Shown: positions 1,768 through 47,373 of the stretch, piece by piece | How positions within the stretch are numbered: position 1 is the stretch's first letter | Layout: each line of letters opens with the position of its first letter | Virus record (IMG/VR): IMGVR_UViG_3300017716_001756 | Location: 15,047 to 79,046 of that record | Source of the DNA: a virus | Taxonomy: Duplodnaviria; Caudoviricetes | Length of the DNA stretch: 64,000 nt | Strand: one strand, 5' to 3' | Made by a program: the position numbers and the translations under genes | Notes under the pieces: model-generated | The model's input: the letters and a program-made list of their open reading frames with translations, nothing else | Told to the model about the DNA's origin: nothing | Database searches by the model: none

Positions 1768-1799
1768 AGAGAAAGGGCCGGGAATAAATCCCGGCCCTT
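1768..1799 (-). terminator. Rho-independent terminator after the major capsid gene
   Basis: 11-bp stem AAGGGCCGGGA/TCCCGGCCCTT followed on the minus strand by TTTCTCT. Confidence 0.75.
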
Positions 1800-1818
1800 C
1801 TTCATTCTTAAGCTTCAA

Positions 1819-3033
1819 TTACGAAGCTTGCGTGTAGTCATAGACCGAACGAGTGTCACCGTGGATCAGGCGGAAGCCCGTATTCATGGTGCGGAAGTAG
1901 CTGATCGTCTGGTTACGAACCGAACGTTCCGATTCGTTAATCAGCGAGCCAGATTCAACCAGTTCTTCCAGCGTGTCGGCTTTCGAGAAGCCGATCAGCT
2001 TACCAGCCGGGGCCGAGGACGAGAGAACGAAGTTCACCGGGCCTTGGAACAGCGGGACAGTGCCGATTTGGAAGCCGGAGCGAGCGAGGTTCTCGTTCAC
2101 ACCGCCACCTTGGGCAGCTTGCGGGACTGCGAACAGTTGCAGCCACTGGAAGTAAGCGTCGTAGTTACCAACGACAGTGTCAATCGGCAGTTGATCTTTA
2201 GCACGATCAACCAGCCACTTCAGGAGACCCTTCCACGACAGCGTACCAGCGGTGTGTCCAGCGTCGAGGGCAAACTGGTTGACCTCAGGGGCGGCACCGT
2301 AGGTGGCGTCGATACCGGTGGTCAGGGCGTGACCGTTGACCAGCAGATTCGTGGCAGAGCGGACACGGGACAGTTCCATGGCGCGTTGAGCACGGTTAGC
2401 GTAGGGAGTCATGATATCCAGCGAGACACGACGTTCGAACTCGTAGGAGGTCCGATAACCCATACCGTGTTTGAAGATACCGACCGACTGTTGGCTGGTA
2501 CGGATCGCGGAGACCGGGATATTGCCCGATTCAGCGATGATACCGGCGACTTCGTAGTCATCAGCCTTGTCAGCAACAACCGTCGAAATCATTTCCACGC
2601 CGTTAATGGTACGCGACTGAGAGACAAGCGATTCGACCGTTTCCAGTTGGTTCTGCTTGTACTTGTAGGTCACCATATCGTCGATGACTTCCGGGAACAT
2701 GGCACGGGTGCCGGGGAAGGTTTGGAACGTGTCAGCGGCGGCTTGCAGGAGAATGCCCTGTTCGAAGTCGTTAGCAACCGGCAGAGCCAGAGCAACCTTG
2801 ACCAGATCGTAACCATTCAGACCGGCGTTAAGAGCTTGGGCCTTCAGATCAGCGTCCTTGGTACCACGAACATCAACCGACAGGTTGAGGTAGTCACGCA
2901 TCGACAGACCAGCTTCCTTAGCCCTCGCGACCAGAAGCTCACCAGCGGCACGAGACTCAGCAGGGTTTTCATGACGGAGATTACCGATCACGTCCTCTAC
3001 AGCTTGTCGCTTCACAGTAGCGAGATTATACAT
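1819..3033 (-). CDS. Major capsid protein
   Basis: 404 aa, follows portal-protease-decoration genes and has a strong terminator behind it; sequence character consistent with an HK97-fold capsid. Confidence 0.8.
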   Translation of the reverse strand: MYNLATVKRQAVEDVIGNLRHENPAESRAAGELLVARAKEAGLSMRDYLNLSVDVRGTKDADLKAQALNAGLNGYDLVKVALALPVANDFEQGILLQAAADTFQTFPGTRAMFPEVIDDMVTYKYKQNQLETVESLVSQSRTINGVEMISTVVADKADDYEVAGIIAESGNIPVSAIRTSQQSVGIFKHGMGYRTSYEFERRVSLDIMTPYANRAQRAMELSRVRSATNLLVNGHALTTGIDATYGAAPEVNQFALDAGHTAGTLSWKGLLKWLVDRAKDQLPIDTVVGNYDAYFQWLQLFAVPQAAQGGGVNENLARSGFQIGTVPLFQGPVNFVLSSSAPAGKLIGFSKADTLEELVESGSLINESERSVRNQTISYFRTMNTGFRLIHGDTRSVYDYTQAS

Positions 3034-11761: not shown

Positions 11762-11912
11762 GGAAATCGAAGAACCACCAATCTATCGCTATATCGTTAT
11801 AGTGGATGGGTCGCCTCATACAAAGTCGGTGACCTTGGAGGCTTCGGTCATATCAGCTAGAGAGGCAGATACAGTGACTGACGATCCTATTGGTATTTAC
11901 TCTCTGCATTAA
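11736..11912 (+). CDS. Small acidic hypothetical protein
   Basis: Manual translation MNEVPEQNEEIEEPPIYRY...; AAGGA RBS; ends at a terminator. Confidence 0.5.
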   Translation: MNEVPEQNEEIEEPPIYRYIVIVDGSPHTKSVTLEASVISAREADTVTDDPIGIYSLH

Positions 11913-11915
11913 ACG

Positions 11916-11946
11916 GGGCCTGTCGCAAGACAGGCCCTTTTCTTTT
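11916..11946 (+). terminator. Rho-independent terminator
   Basis: GGGCCTGTC-GCAA-GACAGGCCC followed by TTTTCTTTT. Confidence 0.85.
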
Positions 11947-12155
11947 GGGCTCTTCATTAACCCGGCGAGCACATACAGAGAAGCCCCCGTCTTGCAGGAC
12001 GAGGGCTTCGGGAGAGAGGACAATATACACATGAGACAGTCGAACGTTGCTAATATAAGCATCAAAGCGCGAAGCGCAAGTGTGGTTCAAAGTGGTTATC
12101 TGGAAATGTGAAAAGTTTCCCCGGAGTGTGAGTGGCATGACCACCCCCAGAACGT

Positions 12156-12170
12156 GAACGAAACAAGAAC
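12156..12170. promoter_or_regulatory. Alphaproteobacterial LexA (SOS) box-like site
   Basis: GAAC-GAAACAA-GAAC matches the GAAC-N7-GAAC consensus. Confidence 0.45.
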
Positions 12171-13359: not shown

Positions 13360-13396
13360 GAACGGAATGAGAACAAACCGTGAACAAACCGTGAAC
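13360..13396. promoter_or_regulatory. Three overlapping LexA box-like sites
   Basis: GAAC-ggaatga-GAAC-aaaccgt-GAAC-aaaccgt-GAAC, all with N7 spacing. Confidence 0.65.
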
Positions 13397-17381: not shown

Positions 17382-19037
17382 ATGTTCAGAATTCAATATG
17401 TTGGGGAATACGAATTCCTCTACAATCTTTCAGCGGTGTATGAATCGGAGGAAGCCGCCAAGGCCGCTTTCCCGCCGATCCACTCTGAAGATCGTTCCAG
17501 CTACTACACCCGTCGCGACTACTACCCTGAAGGCGCTCCGCTCTTCAAGGCGTACAAGATGAGTGCCTTTGATGCGATGAGGCACGTCACGGATTTTTCG
17601 AGCTTCGCTCAGAATCCGTGGCGCAACGAGCGCAACATCGTTCGCTATATTTCGAAGGATATGTATATCCACCCCGATCCCGAGAATAACGCTCTCGTTC
17701 GTTTCTGGGATTTCGGGGCTGAACGCTGGACTTCGATGAAGCCGGGGAAATTCCTCAAGAAATTCTTCGAAGGCACTTTCACGGATCGCCAGATCGATTT
17801 CTACTCCGAATTCTGGCGCTCTGGCGAGCGCCCTATGCCCGCCGTCAACTTCGCCATTGCGATGACCGAAGAGGAAATGGTCTGGGTCTACAAGCATGGC
17901 CCTCAGTCCTGTATGAAGGGGTTCGATGCCGTCAAGGTCTATGCCGCCGGAGACCTCGGCCTCGGCTACCTGACGGACGAACAGGGGCGGGTTATGGCCC
18001 GCGCTCTCTGCTGGCCCGAACGCAAAATCTACGGTCGTGTCTATCCCACCGAAGGCCGCGCGGATTCTGACCGCATTCTCTATGAGAGCGAAGAGGTTCT
18101 CCAATCGATGAGAAACGCCCTCATCAAGAAATTCAGGGACGACGGCTATTCCTCCTTGGCCGAAAATCCTGCGGGTCTCGATGGTGCTCGAATCCGCTAC
18201 ATCAAGCACGAGAATGGGGCAGTGATGCCCTACCTCGACAATAATCTGAAGCTTCAGATTACGGATTCCTCGGCGGGGCATTTCACGGTCAGCCGTGATC
18301 CTCTGGCTATCGCTGCGGGCACCACCAGCGGCTATATGTCGATCCAGTGGCAGACTTGCCACCACTGCAAGGTGGAGGCTATGTCTGGATCGGCGCAGCC
18401 TCAAGTCAATCGGAACTGGAAGAATTTCAATACCAGCGGTGGCACCAGAGTCCATGTGTGTACCGCCTGCAACAACCTCGAAACGCCCGCCTCGTGGAGA
18501 GACTCTGATGGCATTTGGTGGCTGACGAAGGGCAATACCCCCATCAACGCCCTGACGCAGGACTTGCCCACCAATCATCCCGACTACTCCCGCTACATGA
18601 AGAAAATTCACCCTGAATCTGATGCTGCAAGGCGTATCTGGGTCTCGGACGGCAATGGGTTGAGCTATCATGGCAGATATGTCGCTGCCCAAATTCTCCC
18701 GAACGGGAAAAAATACGCTCCTTCCGAACTGATCGAGTACCCCCGCTGGTCGGGCCAATACTTCCTCAAGGACAGTTCCGAGCATATTCAGGCCAAGAAA
18801 GACGCCGCCAAGGTTCGTTTGAAGCTCAAGGCCGAACAGGCGCAAGCCCAATTGGGCTGGCTGAAAGAAGACAAGTCGTACTACGACAAGCACGGCGAAT
18901 ACGAAACGTCCAAGCGGATTTCCGCTCAAATCATGACGGCGGGCATGAAAGCCTCCCTCGCCGCCAAGAAAGCTTCGTTGCAAACCCGCAACGAGCAACT
19001 TAATTCCCTGAGAGGGTCTACCTTCAATGTCGGCTAA
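17382..19037 (+). CDS. Large hypothetical protein (SCM...ARALxW motif, two CxxC)
   Basis: 551 aa, GAGGA RBS, phage-like codon usage; function unknown. Confidence 0.75.
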   Translation: MFRIQYVGEYEFLYNLSAVYESEEAAKAAFPPIHSEDRSSYYTRRDYYPEGAPLFKAYKMSAFDAMRHVTDFSSFAQNPWRNERNIVRYISKDMYIHPDPENNALVRFWDFGAERWTSMKPGKFLKKFFEGTFTDRQIDFYSEFWRSGERPMPAVNFAIAMTEEEMVWVYKHGPQSCMKGFDAVKVYAAGDLGLGYLTDEQGRVMARALCWPERKIYGRVYPTEGRADSDRILYESEEVLQSMRNALIKKFRDDGYSSLAENPAGLDGARIRYIKHENGAVMPYLDNNLKLQITDSSAGHFTVSRDPLAIAAGTTSGYMSIQWQTCHHCKVEAMSGSAQPQVNRNWKNFNTSGGTRVHVCTACNNLETPASWRDSDGIWWLTKGNTPINALTQDLPTNHPDYSRYMKKIHPESDAARRIWVSDGNGLSYHGRYVAAQILPNGKKYAPSELIEYPRWSGQYFLKDSSEHIQAKKDAAKVRLKLKAEQAQAQLGWLKEDKSYYDKHGEYETSKRISAQIMTAGMKASLAAKKASLQTRNEQLNSLRGSTFNVG

Positions 19038-20214
19038 AGGAAAATACGTCGATCCGCTCCTGATGCGGATGCTTCAGTATAAACGACCGGCATGGTCAGC
19101 GACTGAAGAGATTTTCATCGATAAATTCTTGATGGTGCTCCCCGGCGCTCACCAAGACGACTTCGGCAATGTTCTCGTCGAAGTCGGTGACAATCCCAAC
19201 ATCATGTGGTCGGCTCACACCGATACTGTCCACCACAAGGATGGGATTCAGGGTCTCAGGGTCAATGGCCCTTGGATTACCCCGATCACCGGCAAAAAGC
19301 GCGAGCTTTCCAATTGTCTGGGAGCCGACGACACCGCTGGAATCTGGCTCATGGTCAAGATGATCGAAGCCAATATTCCCGGCCTCTACATCTTCCACCG
19401 TGCCGAAGAAGTCGGTGGTCTTGGGTCCAAGCACATCGCTTCCAAGACCCCCGAAGTAGTTGAGAGCATCGATTACTGTATCGCCCTTGACCGCAAGGAC
19501 TATACGTCAGTCATCACCCACCAACGCGGCACCCGTTGCTGTTCCGCCGATTTTGCCGACAGTCTCTGTGGCATTCTGGGGTCCAATGACTGGAAACCCG
19601 ACCGTACCGGCGTCTTTACTGACAGCGCCAACTACACCGATTTGATCGGTGAATGTACGAATTTGAGCGTCGGATATTTCGCTCAACATGGCCCCGCCGA
19701 AAAGCAAAACTGGCTCTTCCTTCAGAATATGCTGGAAATCCTGATTGCCGCCGATTGGGGCCTCTTGATCGCCAAGCGCAAGCCCGGTGAAGCTGACCCC
19801 GACAAGCCGGTCTGGAAGCCCTACTCTGGCGCTGGTGGCAGCTACGTCGGCGGCGGTCACCCCTACAAGCCGTGGCAGGGGTATCAAGACGACGGCGATT
19901 GGGTCGGCAAATCTGATACGGCTCCGAAACATATCAAGAGCCGTCAAGATTACGTCGCTTCTGTCGAAGATTTCTGCTACCAGAATTACGCCTCTGTCGC
20001 AGAATTCTTCGAGGAACTCGGAATCACCCTCGAAGACCTCGAAGAATACCGTGAGGGTACCTCTGACGCCTTCGATATCATCATCCGATCCGGTATCGAT
20101 GAAGTCGGCGGTGACGAGCCTCCGCCTAAGGCCCTCCCGGCACCGGCTCCGAAAAAGCCTACCAAGGTTGCTCCCAAGCCCAAGGGCCGGGGTAAAATCG
20201 TTCAGGTCCACTGA
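19027..20214 (+). CDS. M28/M20-family zinc peptidase
   Basis: Metal-ligand motifs SAHTDTVH, LGADDTAG, AEEVGGLGS, ALDRK and a late H. Confidence 0.85.
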   Translation: MSAKGKYVDPLLMRMLQYKRPAWSATEEIFIDKFLMVLPGAHQDDFGNVLVEVGDNPNIMWSAHTDTVHHKDGIQGLRVNGPWITPITGKKRELSNCLGADDTAGIWLMVKMIEANIPGLYIFHRAEEVGGLGSKHIASKTPEVVESIDYCIALDRKDYTSVITHQRGTRCCSADFADSLCGILGSNDWKPDRTGVFTDSANYTDLIGECTNLSVGYFAQHGPAEKQNWLFLQNMLEILIAADWGLLIAKRKPGEADPDKPVWKPYSGAGGSYVGGGHPYKPWQGYQDDGDWVGKSDTAPKHIKSRQDYVASVEDFCYQNYASVAEFFEELGITLEDLEEYREGTSDAFDIIIRSGIDEVGGDEPPPKALPAPAPKKPTKVAPKPKGRGKIVQVH

Positions 20215-20288
20215 TTAGGGCCTTGTGCTCTTATCAAAAGTGACTATCTGAGATAGCCGGGAGTTTCCGACAGTTTCTCCCCGGTTAC

Positions 20289-20415
20289 GTCTGCGTGGCT
20301 GAGTGGCTTAAGGCATTGGTTGTGACCCAATAATCTACCTCATGGGTCTAGACTAATGGCAAGTGGCGAATGGTAGTGTCGTACTTGCCCGTGGGTTCGA
20401 ATCCCACCACAGACA
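20289..20415 (+). tRNA. tRNA-His(GUG)-like gene with a 59-nt variable region; CCA not encoded
   Basis: Acceptor GTCTGCG/CACAGAC, D arm TGGCTGAGTGGCTTAAGGC, anticodon arm ATTGG-TTGTGAC-CCAAT, T arm GTGGG-TTCGAAT-CCCAC. Confidence 0.7.
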
Positions 20416-20503
20416 AATAATTCTCCAAGGGGGCTTATGCCTTTCGACCCTTGGAGTTTCAGCCCCGACGCTCCCTCGCGGGTAGAGCGTCGGGGCACAG
20501 TTT

Positions 20504-20517
20504 TCACGGAGCCGTGA
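20504..20517. promoter_or_regulatory. Palindromic operator-like site, copy 8
   Basis: TCACGG-AG-CCGTGA, 2 nt before a TTG start. Confidence 0.7.
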
Positions 20518-20519
20518 TT

Positions 20520-20687
20520 TTGAAATACTCTGATCTTGGCAAAGTCTCGTGGCGCAATCATGAGCGCGACGATGAAGACTCCCGTAAGAATTGGCGGAAA
20601 TTCAACCGCCATGGCCAGCCCGAGGAATTTTCCCGCGAAGAATGGGAATCCAAAGGCAAAAAACCCAAGCGTAAGGACCACCGATAA
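20520..20687 (+). CDS. Small highly charged protein
   Basis: 55 aa, TTG start, coupled to the next gene. Confidence 0.45.
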   Translation: MKYSDLGKVSWRNHERDDEDSRKNWRKFNRHGQPEEFSREEWESKGKKPKRKDHR

Positions 20688-30851: not shown

Positions 30852-31172
30852 GTGAAAACCATAGTGACTGATCCGTTTCCCCTTTTAGAACGACAACGAG
30901 TAGAGCAAGTCGTAAAAAGTTTTTACGACTATAAAATGCCACTTTCGACTTTGATCGATAGTCTGACTGAAGCTAACACTAAAGCCACAACAGACGATGT
31001 TGTTGATCTTTATTATGAAATGGGTAGTCAAAGTAGCTTCCTCATTGGCAAGCGATGGGAAACTGACACCGAGCTTCGTGAACGGAGCCGACAAGATTAT
31101 CTAGCAAATCGAAGACAACGAGAAACTCGACGCGCCCAATATGAAGCACTGAAGAAGGAATTTGAAACATGA
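30852..31172 (+). CDS. Hypothetical protein
   Basis: 106 aa; C-terminus (RRAQYEALKKEFE) resembles that of 32670..32990. Confidence 0.55.
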   Translation: MKTIVTDPFPLLERQRVEQVVKSFYDYKMPLSTLIDSLTEANTKATTDDVVDLYYEMGSQSSFLIGKRWETDTELRERSRQDYLANRRQRETRRAQYEALKKEFET

Positions 31173-32233
31173 GTAAAGGCGCAGAAGTTTATGCCGTCGC
31201 TATTGAAGAGCATCCAAACGCAGACCGGCTTGAGCTTGCCATTATCGGAGGCTATCGCAGCCTCGTTAGCAAGGGCCAATTCCAGACAGGCGACTTGGTG
31301 GCCTATATCCCCACAGGGTATATTGTACCACAACCCCTCCTTGCCGAAATGGGACTCGAAGGGAAGCTTAACGGGTCGGCTCGTAACAGGGTCAAGGCTC
31401 AGAAATTCAGGGGAATTCTGAGCGAAGGTCTTTGCTATCCTGCACGTCCTGAATGGACTGAAGGCGAAGACGTAACCGAAGCCCTTGGGCTGGTTAAATT
31501 CCAAGCTCCGATTCCTCGCCAGCTTGAAGGCTTCATGTACCAACTTGAGGATCATGAACGTCTGGGCTTCGACATTGAGAACCTGAAGCGTGAACCCGAT
31601 CTTCTCCAACTCGGTGAGGAAGTCATCATCACCGAAAAAATCCACGGCACCTTCATGCTGGTCGTTGGTCTGCCTGAACGTCTGCGTCGTGACGACACCT
31701 TCCACTTTGAAGGCCGAGCGATTGTGACTTCCAAGGGTCTCGGCGGCAAGAGCATCGGTCTGAAACAGACCGAAGAGAACGACGGTAACCTCTACATTCG
31801 TGTCGCCAAACAATATGGTCTTCGTGAAATTGCTATGCAAATGGCTGATGCTTACGACCAGCCAGTCTATCTCCTTGGCGAAGTTTATGGACAAGGTGTC
31901 CAAGACCTTCATTACGGCGCAGAGCTTCCCAAGTACGCCAATTTCGATATTAAGATTGGCCAAGACTGGTTGCCCTCAATCGATTGGGGGATGAACGCTC
32001 AGACATTTCAATACCCTACGGTCCCTGTTCTTTACAAAGGCCCCTTTGATCCTGCAATTGTCGCTCAACTGACCGAAGGCATGACGACACTGGCCGATGT
32101 TCCACCCCATATCCGAGAGGGTGTGGTGGTGAAAGGTACTACTAACCGAGCCGACCGCCATGGTAGTCGGATCATTCTGAAATCAGTGAGTGAGGCATAC
32201 CTCACTCGTAAAGACGGAACGGAATTTAACTGA
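31169..32233 (+). CDS. RNA ligase (Rnl2/Rnl5, DRB0094-like) with N-terminal OB domain
   Basis: HPNADRLE N-terminus; motif I EKIHGT, GEVYG, FDI, motif IV REGVVVK, motif V ILKSVSEAYL. Confidence 0.9.
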   Translation: MSKGAEVYAVAIEEHPNADRLELAIIGGYRSLVSKGQFQTGDLVAYIPTGYIVPQPLLAEMGLEGKLNGSARNRVKAQKFRGILSEGLCYPARPEWTEGEDVTEALGLVKFQAPIPRQLEGFMYQLEDHERLGFDIENLKREPDLLQLGEEVIITEKIHGTFMLVVGLPERLRRDDTFHFEGRAIVTSKGLGGKSIGLKQTEENDGNLYIRVAKQYGLREIAMQMADAYDQPVYLLGEVYGQGVQDLHYGAELPKYANFDIKIGQDWLPSIDWGMNAQTFQYPTVPVLYKGPFDPAIVAQLTEGMTTLADVPPHIREGVVVKGTTNRADRHGSRIILKSVSEAYLTRKDGTEFN

Positions 32234-36107: not shown

Positions 36108-36323
36108 TTGTATTCAGCTCAAATCTCTCTGGTAACTTCTATCTATGTGCATAGACCCGAGGGACATGAGGTAGATCATGAGATACCATTAAATCATCCT
36201 TTAGTATGTGGGCTACATTGTGTAGCCAATCTTCAGTATCTTATTGCTGAAGTTAACAGAGAAAAATCAAATAGGTTTAACCCCAATGACTTCAGTTACC
36301 CTTCGCGACTATCAACAGCTTGA
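36108..36323 (+). pseudogene. N-terminally truncated HNH endonuclease overlapping the helicase start
   Basis: [25 protein letters not shown]...NREKSNRF, a paralogue of the two full HNH genes; only a TTG start, no clear RBS. Confidence 0.65.
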
Positions 36324-43237: not shown

Positions 43238-45818
43238 CTTCCGGGGGTTCAAAGATTTTCTGCTTAAACTCATGGCCAAGCCGGAACTCACCGGCATTGA
43301 CCTTGAGACCCATAACGATAACGCCCACGCGGGCATCAAACAGTACGACGAAGACGGTGTCTTCGATCTTCGTCGTACTGTCATCACTGGTTTCTCCCTC
43401 TACAAGGACGGTGAGAACGAAGCTTACTATTTCAATCTGGAACAGGCTGACGTAGAGAATCGGCTGACTTGGGAAGAAGTAAAACCTGTTCTTGAGGCGA
43501 ACGCCAGTGGTCTGTGGATAGCTCACAACGCCACGTTTGAACGTACCATGCTGTTGTCCGTGAAGGATTACCAGCTTGATGATGAGCGCCTGATCGACAC
43601 CATGCAAATGGCAGTGTCGAACCATAATCGCGACGAATATTCTATTGAGTCTCTCGTCAGCACCGGCATTGAGGCGTTTGCTCCGATCATTCCGAAGGCG
43701 GCTGTAGCCTTTGCCGAATTCGCTGGCCGTAATCATATGACCAGCGAACAATCTGAGGTTCTCGGCCAAGTCATTGGCAAATCCTCCAAGGCGGCGTTCA
43801 GTTATAACGGCTTGGTCAAGAGCATCGCTTACGGCTATGGCCTCAAGCAGATCGTTGAACGTTTCTTCGGGGTCAAGATGACGACCTACGAGGAAGTGCT
43901 GCGTGGGCGTAAGCACATGGGCCTTCTTACGGGTGACGAAGTTGTCGAGTATGGTGCCGATGATGCCTATTGGGCAGTGCGTGTCTTCAAGGAACTGAAG
44001 GACCGGATGCTGGAAAGCAACCCGCTGGTTCTCAAGACGTTCCTGACGCAAGAGAATCCGATGATCAAAGTGTACTCCGATGTTTGGAGACATGGGGTTC
44101 GCATCAATACCCCTAACGTCAAGGCCCGACAGGCAGTTGAGCGTGATGCTTACGCTATGAAGTTGCGTGAGCTTCGTCCCGTGATTCGGGGGCTTCTGCC
44201 GTTTGACGAAGCTCCCCACGCAGGGTTGGCTAAGGACGACAAGTCCTATATGAGAAACGAAGCTTACAAGAAATACCGTAAGCGTATCGAAGATTGGGCA
44301 AACACTGACGACAGTGGTATGACCAACTACGAAGTCAGTAAGCAAGTCTCCGGTGCGGTTTCAGAGTCGTGGACCTATGAGCACGACGATAAGAACGGCG
44401 ACCTTAACTTCGCCTACTGGATGACGCAGCGCGTCTTGATGTACGACCTGTTCCGTATCCCTGTGCTCAAGTACAAGGGTAAGGTACAGTCGGACGCCGA
44501 CGCCCGTGGTAAGCTCATGGAGAAAATGAGCGGTGAAAAGCTTGCCGCCATGAGGATTCTCAATGAAATGGTGGGTATTGAGCAGCGCATGAAGCTGTAT
44601 CTCAATCCTTATCTGATGCTTCTTGATCCTGAAACTGATAGAATCTATCCGCAGCTTTCGTCTATGCTAAACACTCGGCGCATGGGTACTTCGTTCCCCA
44701 ATCCTATGCAGCTTAGCAAGCGTGGTGAGAGTACCTATATTCGAGGATTCTATCTACCCGATGAAGAAGACCACGTTATTGTTTCATTGGATTGGTCTAG
44801 CTTTGAGCTTGTTATCATTGGTGAGCTTAGTGGTGATCCTGAATTTGCCCGTAATTTTTCACAGCTTCCCTTTGGCGACCTCCATACTGGCGCTGCTGTC
44901 GATTGCCTACGGGTCACGATACCGGAACTCACGCTAGACCTGTTTAACAATCTGGACACTCTGTCCATTGAGGAAATCAATGCTATTAACCCGAAGATTC
45001 TTATCGATCCATCGGGTAATAGTATGGACCCCAAGAAGGCCAAGAAGTTCTGGCGAACTGTCGTCGGCAAAGGAGCCAACTTCAACTACTTCTACTCTGG
45101 TGCCCTCTCCACTGTTGGAGACACGCTAGGCTGGTCGTCTGATACCATGTGGGAAGCGACGGATAGATACCGTCAACGCTTCGCAGTGGCTGAAGCGTGG
45201 CGCGTTGATACCATCCAGCGTCTGCAACGTGACGGCTATCTGACCCTGCCTGACGGCCACCGTAGGGTTCGTTATGAGGCTACCCAAGAGTGGGCCAGCT
45301 TCATGAAGAACCAGTTCTCTCAGAAGCAACAGTATCTTGGCCTCCAAACCAAGGCACTGACCACCTTCGGGGGGCTTGTTATCAAGTCCTTGCAGTCCAG
45401 AGCCAACAACCAAGGTGTAAACGCACTGGTGCAAGGCACTAACGCCTTCATCGCCAAGCGTTCCATCCTCAGGATCATCCCTGCGGCTACGGCTGCTGGT
45501 TTGAGGTTCCGTTTCATGTTCCCTGTTCACGACGAGCTTGTCTGGTCAGTTCATAGGGACGATGTTGCAGCTTTCATTCAGATCGCTCGCGCCATTATGA
45601 CGGATCACCCTGATATCTTCCCGACCCTGAAGCTAGATTGTACTCCCTCTGTTGGTCGTACCTTCGAGCCTTGGGACGCTAAGAAAGCCCCTGTGGGTCA
45701 GATTGAGCTTGCAGAAATCCAAGCTGATATGTTCGGGTTCAAGAGGAACCAGAACATTGTAGAAGACACTAACGCTATCCAAGAAATTGTAAGGAACCTA
45801 TATGAAAAACGGACCTGA
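43185..45818 (+). CDS. polA: Family A DNA polymerase with 3'-5' exonuclease
   Basis: ExoI GIDLETH, ExoII AHNATFE, ExoIII YGADDA; motif A DWSSFEL, motif B KGANFNYFY, motif C VHDEL. Confidence 0.95.
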   Translation: MQTPPHDKIRSVLIDRRNFRGFKDFLLKLMAKPELTGIDLETHNDNAHAGIKQYDEDGVFDLRRTVITGFSLYKDGENEAYYFNLEQADVENRLTWEEVKPVLEANASGLWIAHNATFERTMLLSVKDYQLDDERLIDTMQMAVSNHNRDEYSIESLVSTGIEAFAPIIPKAAVAFAEFAGRNHMTSEQSEVLGQVIGKSSKAAFSYNGLVKSIAYGYGLKQIVERFFGVKMTTYEEVLRGRKHMGLLTGDEVVEYGADDAYWAVRVFKELKDRMLESNPLVLKTFLTQENPMIKVYSDVWRHGVRINTPNVKARQAVERDAYAMKLRELRPVIRGLLPFDEAPHAGLAKDDKSYMRNEAYKKYRKRIEDWANTDDSGMTNYEVSKQVSGAVSESWTYEHDDKNGDLNFAYWMTQRVLMYDLFRIPVLKYKGKVQSDADARGKLMEKMSGEKLAAMRILNEMVGIEQRMKLYLNPYLMLLDPETDRIYPQLSSMLNTRRMGTSFPNPMQLSKRGESTYIRGFYLPDEEDHVIVSLDWSSFELVIIGELSGDPEFARNFSQLPFGDLHTGAAVDCLRVTIPELTLDLFNNLDTLSIEEINAINPKILIDPSGNSMDPKKAKKFWRTVVGKGANFNYFYSGALSTVGDTLGWSSDTMWEATDRYRQRFAVAEAWRVDTIQRLQRDGYLTLPDGHRRVRYEATQEWASFMKNQFSQKQQYLGLQTKALTTFGGLVIKSLQSRANNQGVNALVQGTNAFIAKRSILRIIPAATAAGLRFRFMFPVHDELVWSVHRDDVAAFIQIARAIMTDHPDIFPTLKLDCTPSVGRTFEPWDAKKAPVGQIELAEIQADMFGFKRNQNIVEDTNAIQEIVRNLYEKRT

Positions 45819-46362
45819 ACTGTGGGACAAAATCCTGTCTCATTTCCCTGAAGACACTATCCTCGCTGGTGGTGCTGTACGAGACTTCTTCCTTGGCGTA
45901 GAGCCGAAGGACTTTGATCTGTTCAGCCCCTATAGCTCATACAAAGCTGACATTGAGGGGATGAACCACATCGACTTCGATGATGGTGAAGGTACCCATG
46001 CTGAAGAATATGAGGCCATGGGTGAAATCGGTATCGTCATGAAGGGCGAGATTGAAGGTGTGAATGTCGATTACATCGGTATGCATCTGGACGATCCTGT
46101 CGCTATGATCGAGAGCTTCGATACGGATATCAACCAAGTCTTCTTTGCCCGTGGGGGTCGTCTGTATAAGAAGGCAGGGTTCATCAAGGCACTGGAAACC
46201 AAGATCGTGACAGTGCAACGGGGTGACCGATTGGAGCGTACCCAAGAACGCTTTGACCGCTTTAATCTCAAGATGCACGGACAGTTCACCCTCGTTGTCC
46301 CTGAGGGTTTAGCGATGCCTGAAGTTACGAACGATCCTGAGTTTAATTTCGGAGCAGACTAA
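45802..46362 (+). CDS. Minimal CCA-adding/poly(A) polymerase-type nucleotidyltransferase
   Basis: ILAGGAVRDFFLGVEPKDFDLF; FDTDINQ. Confidence 0.75.
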   Translation: MKNGPELWDKILSHFPEDTILAGGAVRDFFLGVEPKDFDLFSPYSSYKADIEGMNHIDFDDGEGTHAEEYEAMGEIGIVMKGEIEGVNVDYIGMHLDDPVAMIESFDTDINQVFFARGGRLYKKAGFIKALETKIVTVQRGDRLERTQERFDRFNLKMHGQFTLVVPEGLAMPEVTNDPEFNFGAD

Positions 46363-46376
46363 GCTATACTGCCGGT

Positions 46377-46829
46377 ATGACAAAAGCAAAAAACACCGGC
46401 AAATCTAGTGAAGCTCTCTTCGACAACACCATCAAAAGTGTTTACGGAATCAAGGGCCACGTCCAAATCTTCTACGACGCTGCTTACCTTCATGGTTTGA
46501 ACCGTCGTCCTGTACTAGCCCCGGAACAACCAGCCGACAGACTGGTGACCGTTAATGGAACGACTTTCTACGCAGAGATTAAATCAGTTTCTGATGGAAA
46601 GTCGTTCCCATTTGGGATGATAAAAACGAATCAAAAGGCTGCTGCGAAGTTGCAAACGCTCGCTGAAGGACTATATAACTTCTTCGTCCACGATCTTGCT
46701 ACAGATACATTCTACGTTGTCCCCGCCTCTCAAGTGCTCGCCACTATGGAGGCTGGTAAACAGTCTCTGAAGTGGAGCGAAATGACTGTCTGGCAAGACT
46801 ACGAGACGTATAAGGAGTCACATGACTAA
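46377..46829 (+). CDS. RecU-like/PD-(D/E)xK Holliday junction resolvase
   Basis: PADRLV...FYAEIKS motif. Confidence 0.65.
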   Translation: MTKAKNTGKSSEALFDNTIKSVYGIKGHVQIFYDAAYLHGLNRRPVLAPEQPADRLVTVNGTTFYAEIKSVSDGKSFPFGMIKTNQKAAAKLQTLAEGLYNFFVHDLATDTFYVVPASQVLATMEAGKQSLKWSEMTVWQDYETYKESHD

Positions 46830-47373
46830 TCCCCCCTTCACCGACGTAATGGTTGATATCGAGACTACAGGAACACAGCCTAACCGATCAGGTATTCTTC
46901 AGATCGGTGCCGTGAAATTTAATCTTGCTGAGCGAACAGTTTCTCCAAACCTGTTCAACCGATCCCTTCGTGTCCCCGCGTGGCGGTCTTGGGATGAAGA
47001 CACCCGAGAGTGGTGGGCCAAGCAGCCTGATGTTCTATACAACATCGTAGCTCGCTCAGAGTCCCCCCGAGTGGTGATGGACGACTTCGTCCAGTGGGCC
47101 ATGCAGCCCGGTGGCCAGCTTCGGTTCTGGGCCAAGCCCACCAGCTTTGACTTCTCGTTTGTCAGTTCCTATCTGAGAGACTTCGAGCTTCCTCAGCCGT
47201 TTTCCTACAGGGATGCCACAGATATGAACTCGTTCTTCAGTGGGCTTTACTTCCCCCTTCCCGTTGACCGTGAGGGCGAGCCCACTATGGTCGGCACCGC
47301 ACACAACGCATTAGCTGACGCCCTCTTCCAGACCAAGCTCGTGTTCCACCACGCAGATAAGGTAGGCAAATGA
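46822..47373 (+). CDS. DEDDh 3'-5' exonuclease
   Basis: VMVDIETTG, SFDF, AHNALADA. Confidence 0.85.
   Translation: MTNPPFTDVMVDIETTGTQPNRSGILQIGAVKFNLAERTVSPNLFNRSLRVPAWRSWDEDTREWWAKQPDVLYNIVARSESPRVVMDDFVQWAMQPGGQLRFWAKPTSFDFSFVSSYLRDFELPQPFSYRDATDMNSFFSGLYFPLPVDREGEPTMVGTAHNALADALFQTKLVFHHADKVGK

What the first reader, a model, noticed from the sequence alone, without database searches (positions are those of the whole stretch)
20289..20415. tRNA-His(GUG)-like RNA with a class II-type D arm and a 59-nt double-hairpin variable region
Seen: acceptor, D, anticodon and T arms are all present. Between the anticodon and T arms lie 59 nt (20332-20390) that fold into two hairpins: TCTAC-CTCATGG-GT(CT)AGA and GGCAAGT...ACTTGCC. 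The first has a 7-nt loop centred on CAT, like a second (Met) anticodon loop. The discriminator is A, there is no G-1 and no encoded CCA. Known: tRNA-His normally has a short variable loop, and several alphaproteobacterial orders use G-1-less tRNA-His with A73. Inference: an intron-bearing or extended tRNA, a nuclease-resistant replacement tRNA, or a tRNA-mimic decoy.
Basis: partly seen in the sequence, partly recalled or inferred. Interest (0 to 1): 0.7.

Follow-up and report, generated by a model that had tools for sequence, protein, structure and literature searches.

The report
Phage tRNA-like gene with masked anticodon
A freshwater phage carries one oversized (127-nt) gene clearly derived from a tRNA, but an extra 27 bases pair with its own anticodon arm and hide the anticodon, so it is more likely a tRNA mimic, a precursor or a decaying gene than an ordinary histidine tRNA; no relative was found to decide between these.

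Summary
Window 20289-20415 (+) matches the Rfam tRNA model end to end (38.7 bits against a threshold of 29) with a 57-nt insert. It has a 7-bp acceptor stem, a class II (Ser/Tyr-type) D arm, a GUG anticodon arm, a canonical T arm and A73. It has no G-1 and no encoded CCA.

The proposed "two-hairpin variable region" is not the favoured fold. Nucleotides 55-70 are an imperfect inverted copy of nucleotides 26-41, so a 14-bp extended arm forms (-17.6 kcal/mol, z -3.9). It replaces the anticodon hairpin and hairpin B (-1.9 kcal/mol each), whose pair probabilities are about 0. The 30-nt hairpin C sits where a class II variable arm would.

The element is the phage's only tRNA-like gene. It lies between a peptidase gene and strong terminator-like hairpins. 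I found no homologue in IMG/VR, JGI metagenomes, GTDB genomes, GenBank phages or related phage records, so covariation could not be tested.

The element is not a YrlA RNA, tmRNA, allo-tRNA or BHB/group I intron tRNA. As an alphaproteobacterial G-1-less tRNA-His it fails on U72, G37 and body type.

My best reading (about 0.4) is an anticodon-masked tRNA mimic that is processed like a tRNA. The rivals are a decaying remnant, a precursor that is spliced or remodelled, and a plain decoder.

The same stretch was noted before in this scan on an overlapping window.

The parts
20289..20295 (+). Acceptor stem, 5' strand (GUCUGCG). Base -1 (20288) is C, so there is no G-1.
   Evidence: Pair probabilities are 0.87-0.99 for pairs 1-5.
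20298..20314 (+). Class II-type D arm (GCUGAGUGGCUUAAGGC): a 3-bp stem and a long loop carrying A14, G15, G18 and G19.
   Evidence: With its flanks, the 20-mer is exact in 75 bacterial species, mostly in tRNA-Ser and once in tRNA-Tyr.
20315..20331 (+). Anticodon-arm sequence AUUGG-UUGUGAC-CCAAU (U33, GUG at 20322-20324, A37). It is canonical in sequence but predicted not to form.
   Evidence: The Rfam alignment is. The arm alone folds at -1.9 kcal/mol. Its pair probability is about 0 in the full RNA.
20332..20358 (+). 27-nt insert. Positions 20343-20358 are an imperfect inverted copy (12 of 16) of 20314-20329. The insert is bounded by the imperfect direct repeat CCAAU/CUAAU.
   Evidence: Read from the sequence. 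Hairpin B alone folds at -1.9 kcal/mol and its pair probability is about 0.
20314..20358 (+). Extended arm: an 8-bp stem, a 2x2 internal loop (G34 U35 facing U A), a 6-bp stem and a 13-nt loop AUAAUCUACCUCA. It swallows the anticodon loop.
   Evidence: -17.6 kcal/mol, z -3.9, 0 of 200 shuffles as stable. The minus strand gives only -11.1 kcal/mol, z -1.6. Pair probabilities are 0.83-1.0.
20359..20388 (+). Hairpin C (GCAAGUG...UACUUGC, 10 bp with one bulge and a 9-nt loop), in the position of a class II variable arm. CC (20389-20390) follows, which gives a possible G15-C48 pair.
   Evidence: -9.1 kcal/mol, z -2.4. Pair probabilities are 0.92-0.98 for six pairs and 0.45 for the G.U pair 77-94.
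20391..20407 (+). T arm GUGGG-UUCGAAU-CCCAC (G53-C61, T54, psi55, C56 and A58 all in place).
   Evidence: Pair probability is about 0.97.
20408..20415 (+). Acceptor stem 3' strand (CACAGAC) and discriminator A73. No CCA follows.
20424..20496 (+). Two terminator-like hairpins just downstream: 20424-20455 and 20462-20496, the second followed by ACAGUUUU.
   Evidence: -15.8 kcal/mol (z -2.8) and -28.8 kcal/mol (z -5.6). The simple terminator scan did not flag them.
19027..20214 (+). Upstream gene: an M28-like phage peptidase (phrog_4191) that ends 74 nt before the element. No promoter-like site lies between them, so co-transcription is likely.
31169..32233 (+). Phage RNA ligase with an N-terminal OB fold and a nucleotidyltransferase domain, the NgrRnl (Rnl5) type. 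This is context only; no link to the element is shown.
   Evidence: PF09414 at 62.4 bits plus PF21189. phrog_968 'RNA ligase'. The PDB sequence match is to the Naegleria RNA ligase 5cot.

Best explanation
The element is a phage-encoded RNA derived from a tRNA with a class II body and a GUG anticodon. It keeps everything needed to fold the tRNA 'elbow' and acceptor end: a 7-bp acceptor stem, U8, A14, G15, G18G19, a T loop and a possible C48. A 27-nt insert that is an inverted copy of the anticodon arm zips that arm into a 14-bp extended helix, so the anticodon is not displayed.

The likely course of events (all inferred) is as follows. The element is transcribed at the end of the early peptidase operon. 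It is cut out by RNase P and by 3' trimming plus CCA addition, like any tRNA. It then acts as a stable tRNA mimic with a masked anticodon, for example by occupying or diverting tRNA-binding host factors such as tRNA-targeting defence nucleases or a synthetase. It would not act as a routine decoder of His codons.

Shown: the tRNA ancestry, the architecture and the dominance of the masked fold in silico. Inferred: transcription, processing and the mimic role.
For: - The tRNA model matches end to end at 38.7 bits and the tertiary-core nucleotides are intact.
- The masked fold dominates. The extended arm is -17.6 kcal/mol against -1.9 for each local hairpin. Its z-score is -3.9, with 0 of 200 shuffles as stable. 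Pair probabilities are 0.83-1.0 against about 0. The minimum-energy fold of the growing transcript switches to the extended arm once nt 60 is made, so a kinetic trap is unlikely.
- The helix is much better on the tRNA strand than on the opposite strand (-17.6 against -11.1 kcal/mol). It includes two G.U pairs. The repeat is imperfect, which argues against an assembly or snap-back artefact.
- The gene sits in a compact early region between a coding gene and strong terminator-like hairpins. It is the only tRNA-like gene in the 64-kb window.
- Structurally expanded single tRNA genes are kept by selection in this phage family. Phages JWF and Achromobacter 2-1 share an 87-88-nt tRNA-Lys(CUU) whose extra hairpin shows four compensatory pairs, CACU/AGUG against UGCA/UGCA.
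- Oversized class II-bodied tRNA-like genes recur in viral and metagenomic contigs. One family of 9 sequences has 7 of 22 predicted pairs showing compensatory changes, most in the acceptor and T stems and two in its insert hairpin.
Against: - This is one sequence only. No homologue was found anywhere, so there is no conservation or covariation for the insert or the extended arm.
- There is no expression data.
- The acceptor stem has a C.A mismatch, and no CCA is encoded.
- A masked anticodon is also what a freshly damaged gene would look like.
- A decoy for anticodon nucleases would be expected to display the anticodon loop, not hide it.
- Nearest-neighbour energies ignore tRNA tertiary contacts, modifications and proteins.
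Confidence: 0.4

Rival explanations
1. Decaying remnant. The phage lineage once carried a tRNA array, and this is its last gene. A small inverted duplication at the anticodon arm inactivated it, and it has no present function.
For: - Among 44 phage records related by large terminase, RNA ligase (PF09414) was found only in the three that carry 15-19 tRNAs, one of them just below the Pfam cut-off. This phage has the ligase but only this one odd tRNA-like gene.
- The acceptor stem has a C6.A67 mismatch, there is no CCA, and the anticodon is masked.
- There is no homologue anywhere, so nothing shows selection.
- A related record, G012, holds degenerate tRNA-like pieces beside a normal tRNA-Asn.
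Against: - All tertiary-core positions and the D and T arms are intact.
- The repeat has diverged (12 of 16) yet keeps pairing, partly through G.U pairs on the tRNA strand only.
- 127 nt of dead DNA plus flanking structure in a tightly packed early region would be expected to be lost.
- Expanded single tRNAs are under selection in kin.
Confidence: 0.3
2. Precursor with an intervening sequence. About 26 nt are removed (for example element positions 38-63, the canonical 37/38 site) or the arm is remodelled. Removal would leave a 101-nt class II-bodied tRNA(GUG) with the anticodon stem AUUGG/CUAAU, the loop UUGUGAA and a 33-nt variable arm. The ends would be rejoined by the phage's nick-sealing RNA ligase.
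For: - The insert is bounded by CCAAU/CUAAU, so either copy can close a 5-bp anticodon stem.
- The insert pairs with the anticodon region, as tRNA introns do.
- The predicted product resembles natural bacterial class II-bodied tRNAs with non-Ser anticodons and 30-44-nt variable arms: L176 (GUU), L154 (CCC) and L204 (CAU), which score 51-59 bits on the tRNA model.
- The phage encodes an Rnl5-type RNA ligase, a nucleotidyltransferase (phrog_1614) and a DEDD-type exonuclease.
Against: - There is no bulge-helix-bulge motif. The internal loop is a symmetric 2x2 loop.
- 26 nt is far too short for a group I intron.
- No bacterial or phage enzyme is known to excise such a segment.
- No polynucleotide kinase-type domain (PF13671) was found.
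- RNA ligase is not enriched in 32 viral contigs that carry oversized tRNA-likes.
- The contigs in my hits with clean 37/38 introns are small fractions of very large viral genomes by CheckV. I infer, without testing, that these are giant viruses with eukaryotic hosts.
Confidence: 0.12
3. One reading: a working tRNA-His(GUG) for a host with G-1-less tRNA-His. It would decode CAY while carrying a 59-nt variable region of two hairpins.
For: - GUG, U33, A37, A73, C3-G70 and the lack of G-1 are all present.
- An alphaproteobacterial host is plausible. GAAC-N7-GAAC boxes number 9 against 2.6 expected, including a triple array. Caulobacter phage Seuss is among the terminase relatives.
- Alphaproteobacterial phages are known to carry unusual tRNA-His with A73 and no G-1 (PMC5389517).
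- tRNAs with large engineered V-arm hairpins can still translate (PMC7590224).
- A 129-nt tRNA-like RNA with three hairpins between the D and T arms exists in soil metagenomes (L202/L214).
Against: - The anticodon stem and hairpin B have a predicted occupancy of about 0.
- C72 replaces U72; U72C costs 91-fold with Caulobacter HisRS. A37 replaces G37. The body is class II rather than the class I body with a 9-nt D loop (PMC3064791).
- No other class II-bodied tRNA(GUG) with this D arm exists in 185,579 genomes or in IMG/VR.
Confidence: 0.13

Closest known systems
Irregular bacterial and phage tRNAs of Mukai et al. 2017 (allo-tRNAs, (8/4) tRNA-His of alphaproteobacterial phages, E-loop tRNAs; PMC5389517)
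   Same: These are tRNA genes from phages or metagenomes with Ser/Sec-like long-arm bodies joined to non-Ser anticodons. [quoted passage not shown] Some are thought not to be used in translation.
   Different: Those are defined by 8/4 or 9/3 acceptor/T stems, whereas this element is 7/5. None is described with an insert that pairs with and hides the anticodon arm. This element has A73 where most allo-tRNAs have G73 or U73.
G-1-less tRNA-His of Rhizobiales/Caulobacterales/Rhodobacterales (Yuan et al. 2011, PMC3064791)
   Same: No G-1, A73, C3-G70 and a GUG anticodon.
   Different: This element has C72 rather than U72, A37 rather than G37, a class II D arm rather than a 9-nt D loop with U20a, and 59 extra nucleotides. 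Its anticodon is predicted to be paired.
Class II tRNAs (bacterial Ser, Leu, Tyr)
   Same: The D arm is identical to that of many bacterial tRNA-Ser genes and one acidobacterial tRNA-Tyr. A helical arm lies directly before the T stem. A73 occurs as in Leu and Tyr.
   Different: The anticodon is GUG. The variable arm is 30-33 nt, longer than usual. There is an extra 27-nt insert.
Intron-containing pre-tRNAs of archaea and eukaryotes
   Same: Extra sequence next to the anticodon loop pairs with the anticodon region to give an extended anticodon helix. Removing 26 nt at the 37/38 site restores a cloverleaf.
   Different: There is no bulge-helix-bulge motif. The setting is a tailed bacteriophage. 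No splicing endonuclease is known for such hosts.
Engineered tRNA scaffolds and aptamer-tagged tRNAs (e.g. PMC7590224)
   Same: A tRNA body carries foreign hairpins in the anticodon or variable-arm position and is still handled by tRNA enzymes.
   Different: Those are artificial. Here the added sequence is complementary to the tRNA's own anticodon arm.
Single expanded tRNA-Lys(CUU) of Achromobacter phages JWF and 2-1 (terminase 42% identical to this phage's)
   Same: Phages of about 80 kb from the same broad family, each with one oversized tRNA gene in the early or replication region. The extra hairpin is maintained by compensatory changes.
   Different: The anticodon, the insertion site (T stem or variable region) and the locus all differ, and there is no peptidase gene in those phages. 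The anticodon loop is left free there.

Membership tests
tRNA (Rfam RF00005) | Full-length match to the covariance model above the gathering score | tested here: met
   38.7 bits against 29, model positions 1-71.
tRNA (Rfam RF00005) | A 5-bp anticodon stem presenting a 7-nt loop | tested here: inconclusive
   It is present in the sequence (AUUGG-UUGUGAC-CCAAU). Its predicted pair probability is about 0 because nt 26-41 pair with nt 55-70. No probing data exist.
tRNA (Rfam RF00005) | Variable region within the natural range (4-5 nt, or one arm of up to about 21-24 nt) | tested here: not met
   59 nt lie between the anticodon stem and the T stem. ARAGORN at default settings finds nothing.
G-1-less alphaproteobacterial tRNA-His | No G-1, A73 and a GUG anticodon | tested here: met
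   Base -1 is C, the discriminator is A, and GUG lies at 20322-20324.
G-1-less alphaproteobacterial tRNA-His | G1-U72 pair (U72C costs 91-fold), conserved G37, and a 9-nt D loop with U20a on a class I body (PMC3064791) | tested here: not met
   The element has G1-C72, A37, and a class II D arm with a 3-bp stem and an 11-nt loop.
Class II tRNA (Ser/Leu/Tyr) | Class II D arm plus a helical variable arm next to the T stem | tested here: met
   The D-arm 20-mer is exact in 75 bacterial species, mostly in tRNA-Ser. Hairpin C lies at 20359-20388.
Class II tRNA (Ser/Leu/Tyr) | A Ser, Leu or Tyr anticodon, and G73 for Ser | tested here: not met
   The anticodon is GUG and the discriminator is A73.
allo-tRNA (Mukai 2017) | 8/4 or 9/3 acceptor/T-stem composition | tested here: not met
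   The composition is 7/5. U8 cannot pair with the base that follows the T stem.
Archaeal/eukaryal intron-containing tRNA | Bulge-helix-bulge motif at the splice sites | tested here: not met
   The extended arm has one symmetric 2x2 internal loop and no staggered 3-nt bulges. ARAGORN's intron model needs a 40-nt intron that breaks hairpin C.
Group I intron in a bacterial tRNA | A catalytic intron of about 200 nt or more in the anticodon loop | tested here: not met
   The extra sequence is 26-27 nt (59 nt at most), and no Rfam intron family matches.
YrlA / bacterial Y RNA | Match to the family model, with the 5' and 3' ends forming the Ro-binding stem and a closed acceptor-like stem | tested here: not met
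   No Rfam match even at E up to 10. Here the 5' and 3' ends form the acceptor stem.
tmRNA | tRNA-Ala-like ends (G3.U70) and a tag reading frame | tested here: not met
   ARAGORN's tmRNA search finds nothing. The element has C3-G70.

The most novel reading that the evidence does not exclude
A 'self-splinted' or latent tRNA. The built-in complement of the anticodon arm would hold the anticodon region in a duplex, so host anticodon nucleases could not cut it. If it were cut, the break would become a nicked duplex, which is the substrate of the phage's Rnl5-type nick-sealing RNA ligase. Equally, the same ligase could rejoin the ends after removal of the 26-nt segment. Either way this would be a protein-dependent tRNA repair or splicing pathway of a kind not known in bacteriophages.
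Probability: 0.07. Interest if true: 0.85.

Novelty: new variant of a known kind. Interest (0 to 1): 0.45.

Why it matters
Phage tRNAs are now understood as weapons against host defences that cut tRNA (PMC10264068, PMC11555353). Charged tRNAs are also used by phage enzymes outside translation, as with Mu Mom (PMC13219725). A phage tRNA body whose anticodon is deliberately hidden would be a new way of using the tRNA shape, whether as a mimic, a protected spare or a spliced precursor.

In searching for relatives I also met many oversized class II-bodied tRNA-like genes in viral and metagenomic contigs. Standard tRNA finders miss or misname them. This suggests an under-described class of RNAs.

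Against this, the present element is a single orphan sequence and may simply be a damaged gene.

Tried and rejected
**Searches for homologues, all empty**
- blastn of 20200-20520 against GenBank phages.
- Exact and gapped DNA patterns in IMG/VR, JGI metagenomes and GTDB genomes.
- nhmmer against 80 loci that carry the peptidase gene.
- A covariance model of the element (R1) against 50 whole phage records.
- Single-protein searches for loci in IMG/VR with three neighbouring genes.
- The closest terminase relative in IMG/VR is 49% identical and the closest peptidase relative there is 52%.

**Relatives I could not reach**
- The two nearest peptidase relatives (62% and 60%, P0002 and P0003) lie in Logan and ENA assemblies.

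**Readings rejected**
- YrlA, tmRNA and any other Rfam family.
- ARAGORN's 40-nt intron model, because it breaks hairpin C.
- An attP or tRNA-fragment reading, because both halves are present and form an acceptor stem.
- An assembly snap-back artefact, because the repeat is imperfect.
- A mobile palindromic element, because no other copy exists in the genome.

**Leads that came to nothing**
- The 13-nt loop has a 12-nt complement at 36165-36176, inside a decayed HNH gene. About 1.1 such matches are expected by chance.
- The loop of hairpin C resembles a tRNA-Leu D arm (GUGGCGAAUGGUAG), but the tRNA model does not match the insert alone.
- RNA ligase is not enriched among contigs with oversized tRNA-likes.
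- The JWF and 2-1 tRNA locus is not syntenic with this one.
- The genome search with RF00005 on the phage's own record reported no match, although cmscan does. I took this to be a limit of that tool's first-look step for a 127-nt hit.

Full report
**1. What is there**

The window is part of a 79,046-bp IMG/VR virus record estimated 96% complete. It is a tailed phage with a gpA-type large terminase, a primase-polymerase, PolA, ribonucleotide reductase, ThyX and PhoH. By large terminase it is only 39-44% identical to Pseudoalteromonas phage KB12-38, Achromobacter phages JWF and 2-1, and Caulobacter phage Seuss.

At 20289-20415 (+) the Rfam tRNA model matches from its first to its last position. 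The score is 38.7 bits against a gathering score of 29. The E-value is 1.3e-4 for the whole window against all families. A 57-nt insertion lies between the anticodon stem and the T stem. It is the only tRNA-like sequence in the window.

The sequence shows the following:
- The acceptor stem is GUCUGCG/CACAGAC, with one C.A mismatch.
- U8 is present.
- The D arm GCUGAGUGGCUUAAGGC is of class II type and carries A14, G15 and G18G19.
- The anticodon arm is AUUGG-UUGUGAC-CCAAU.
- The T arm is GUGGG-UUCGAAU-CCCAC.
- A C precedes the T stem, which allows a G15-C48 pair.
- The discriminator is A. Base -1 is C. No CCA is encoded.

**2. Where the tRNA body comes from**

The 20-mer TGGCTGAGTGGCTTAAGGCA is exact in 75 bacterial species. 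ARAGORN reads most of those genes as tRNA-Ser and one acidobacterial gene as tRNA-Tyr. So the D arm is a standard class II arm, not a His arm.

No other gene joins this D arm to a UUGUGA anticodon loop in 185,579 bacterial and archaeal genomes or in IMG/VR.

**3. The fold**

Element positions 55-70 (UGGGUCUAGACUAAUG) are an imperfect reverse complement of positions 26-41 (12 of 16). Two of the four differences still allow G.U pairs. The result is an 8-bp stem, a 2x2 internal loop (G34 U35 facing U61 A62), a 6-bp stem and a 13-nt loop.

The evidence that this extended arm wins:
- Alone it folds at -17.6 kcal/mol, with z -3.9 and 0 of 200 shuffles as stable.
- It is part of the minimum-energy structure of the whole RNA, -46.1 kcal/mol. 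Forcing the cloverleaf gives -35.2 kcal/mol.
- In the partition function the anticodon stem and hairpin B have pair probabilities of about 0. The extended arm has 0.83-1.0.
- The minimum-energy fold of the growing transcript switches to the extended arm once nt 60 is made. The 5-bp anticodon hairpin is therefore a poor kinetic trap.
- The opposite strand folds much less well (-11.1 kcal/mol, z -1.6).

Both structures look real in an evolutionary sense. The anticodon arm is too canonical to be chance, being a 5-bp stem with a 7-nt loop, U33 and a purine at position 37, at the right distance from the D arm. The complementarity of the insert is also too good to be chance.

The insert (element positions 44-70) is bounded by CCAAU and CUAAU. 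Removing 26 nt in either register restores a cloverleaf. The product would be a 100-101-nt class II-bodied tRNA(GUG) whose variable arm is hairpin C (30-33 nt).

**4. Setting**

The element starts 74 nt after an M28-like peptidase gene. No promoter-like site lies between them.

Two strong hairpins follow it: 20424-20455 (-15.8 kcal/mol) and 20462-20496 (-28.8 kcal/mol, z -5.6, then ACAGUUUU). It therefore looks like the last element of a transcription unit.

Elsewhere the phage encodes:
- an RNA ligase of the Naegleria/Rnl5 type, with an N-terminal OB fold and a nucleotidyltransferase domain;
- a small nucleotidyltransferase (phrog_1614, with a sub-threshold match to the PolyA_pol head domain);
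- a DEDD-type exonuclease.

No kinase of the PF13671 type was found.

**5. Relatives**

I found no homologue of the element; section 9 lists the searches.
- The nearest terminase relative in IMG/VR is 49% identical and the nearest peptidase relative there is 52%.
- The best peptidase relatives overall (62% and 60%) are in Logan and ENA assemblies.

**6. Indirect evidence from kin and from look-alikes**

*tRNA content and RNA ligase in related phages.* In 44 records related by terminase, tRNA content is none (35 records), one to four (6 records), or 15-19 (3 records). RNA ligase was found only in the three tRNA-rich records, one of them just below the Pfam cut-off. This phage has the ligase with a single odd tRNA-like gene. 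That fits either a specialised survivor or a remnant of a lost array.

*A selected expanded tRNA in kin.* Phages JWF and Achromobacter 2-1 share one 87-88-nt tRNA-Lys(CUU). Its extra hairpin differs at all four pairs yet stays paired (CACU-GACG-AGUG against UGCA-GACG-UGCA). The acceptor and outer T stems also show compensatory changes. So single, structurally expanded tRNAs are under selection in this phage family. That gene is neither homologous nor syntenic to the present one.

*Oversized class II-bodied tRNA-likes elsewhere.* The gapped pattern scans returned dozens of genes of 109-138 nt. Several match the Rfam tRNA model end to end.
- A nine-member phage family has a conserved hairpin in place of the anticodon arm, and 7 of its 22 predicted pairs show compensatory changes.
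- A 129-nt RNA has three hairpins between the D and T arms (L202/L214).
- Some bacterial tRNAs have Ser-type bodies, non-Ser anticodons and 30-44-nt variable arms (L176 GUU, L154 CCC, L204 CAU).

These show that the general category exists and can be functional. They say nothing direct about this element.

**7. Comparison with known kinds**

- *Irregular tRNAs.* Mukai et al. (PMC5389517) described allo-tRNAs, E-loop tRNAs and (8/4) tRNA-His without G-1 and with A73 in alphaproteobacterial phages. The present RNA is 7/5, so it is not an allo-tRNA.
- *G-1-less tRNA-His.* Yuan et al. (PMC3064791) showed that Caulobacter HisRS needs the anticodon, U72 (U72C costs 91-fold) and A73. The natural set also conserves G1-U72, C3-G70, G37 and a 9-nt D loop. 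The element meets A73, no G-1, GUG and C3-G70. It fails U72, G37 and the body type, and its anticodon is predicted to be paired.
- *Host.* An alphaproteobacterial host is plausible but not shown. GAAC-N7-GAAC occurs 9 times against 2.6 expected, with a triple array at 13360-13396.
- *Other families.* YrlA, tmRNA, group I intron and bulge-helix-bulge intron models are not met.

**8. Verdict**

The feature is real and unusual. Its most distinctive property is the self-complementary insert that hides the anticodon, not the "double-hairpin variable region".

My probabilities:
- a tRNA mimic with a masked anticodon that is processed like a tRNA: about 0.40;
- a decaying remnant: about 0.30;
- an ordinary His decoder: about 0.13;
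- a precursor that is spliced or remodelled: about 0.12;
- something else: the remainder.

Because it is a single orphan sequence without expression or comparative support, I rate interest at 0.45. I class it as a new variant of a known kind, the non-canonical phage tRNAs.

**9. What led nowhere**

- All homologue searches were empty.
- The Rfam search of the insert alone found nothing.
- The loop's 12-nt complement at 36165-36176 is at chance level.
- RNA ligase is not enriched among contigs with oversized tRNA-likes.
- ARAGORN did not recognise edited, insert-free versions either, probably because of the 30-nt variable arm.

Noticed in passing
L053:4279-4442, L057:4426-4502, L061:4290-4366, L066:4284-4459, L080:158-673: Five phage contigs that carry the same peptidase family also carry, mostly about 1 kb downstream of the peptidase gene (upstream in L080), one or two tRNA-Glu-like genes. 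In four contigs (L053, L057, L061, L066) these are 77 nt with an encoded CCA and a conserved six-membered anticodon loop CCCUCA; the two L080 copies (76 and 78 nt) differ. ARAGORN calls them 'tRNA-???'.
   Followed up: partly
L087:4279-4397, L090:5111-5248, L092:7079-7187, L093, L094, L100, L107, L109, L113: A family of 109-138-nt phage tRNA-like RNAs. They have Ser-type acceptor, D and T arms but a conserved structured insert (GCCGC...GCGGC hairpin) in place of an anticodon arm. 7 of 22 predicted pairs show compensatory changes. Rfam sees them only as tRNA, and only some of them.
   Followed up: partly
L121, L123, L130, L136, L153, L158, L163, L165, L174, L181, L193 (Afipia, Bradyrhizobium and relatives): tRNA-Ser-like genes (GGAGAGG or GGAAAGG acceptor, and an encoded CCA in three of them) whose anticodon arm is reduced to a stub hairpin (ACCGC-AU-GCGGU or similar), with a normal variable arm and T arm. 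ARAGORN does not call them. Rfam did not match the two loci tested (L121, L163) at the gathering score.
   Followed up: partly
L176:6813-6915, L154:638-737, L204:1784-1899, L207, L212, L209: Bacterial and metagenomic tRNAs with Ser-type class II bodies, G73 and, in L176, L207 and L212, an encoded CCA. They carry non-Ser anticodons (GUU, CCC, CAU, UAG, CAA, GCA) and very long variable arms of 30-44 nt. The three that I scanned (L176, L154, L204) score 51-59 bits on the tRNA model.
   Followed up: partly
L304:1498-1585 (phage JWF record) and L085:1499-1585 (Achromobacter phage 2-1): The single tRNA-Lys(CUU) of these phages is 87-88 nt. It has an extra 4-bp hairpin (loop GACG) inserted in the T-stem or variable region. 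All four pairs differ between the two phages but remain paired.
   Followed up: yes
G062, G087, G092 (IMG/VR records related by terminase): Within this phage family, RNA ligase (PF09414) occurs only in the three records that carry 15-19 tRNA genes, one hit being just below the Pfam cut-off. In G092 the ligase-like match lies inside the tRNA array.
   Followed up: partly
window 13360-13396 (also 12156-12170): Three overlapping GAAC-N7-GAAC boxes, the form of the alphaproteobacterial LexA box. The window holds 9 matches against 2.6 expected; 1 of 100 shuffles reaches 9.
   Followed up: partly
window 11879-11952 (+) and 1770-1836 (-): Sub-threshold Rfam matches to two alphaproteobacterial sRNA families: mmgR/suhB (28.5 bits against 41, E 0.08) and SorX (23 bits against 46.6, E 0.37).
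   Followed up: no
window 36165-36176: CATGAGGTAGAT, inside the HEVDH motif of a decayed HNH gene, is the exact complement of the loop of the element's extended arm (element positions 45-56). One such 12-mer is expected by chance.
   Followed up: yes
window 45802-46362 and 46822-47373: A small nucleotidyltransferase (phrog_1614, with a weak PolyA_pol head motif at 20.6 bits) and an Rv2179c-like 3'-5' exonuclease, separated by one small gene (46377-46829). These are possible RNA 3'-end enzymes. No link to the tRNA-like gene was tested.
   Followed up: no
L310:1501-1612 (-) in record G012: A related 81-kb phage holds a 112-nt degenerate tRNA-like sequence (30 bits) and further tRNA pieces beside a normal tRNA-Asn(GUU).
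   Followed up: partly
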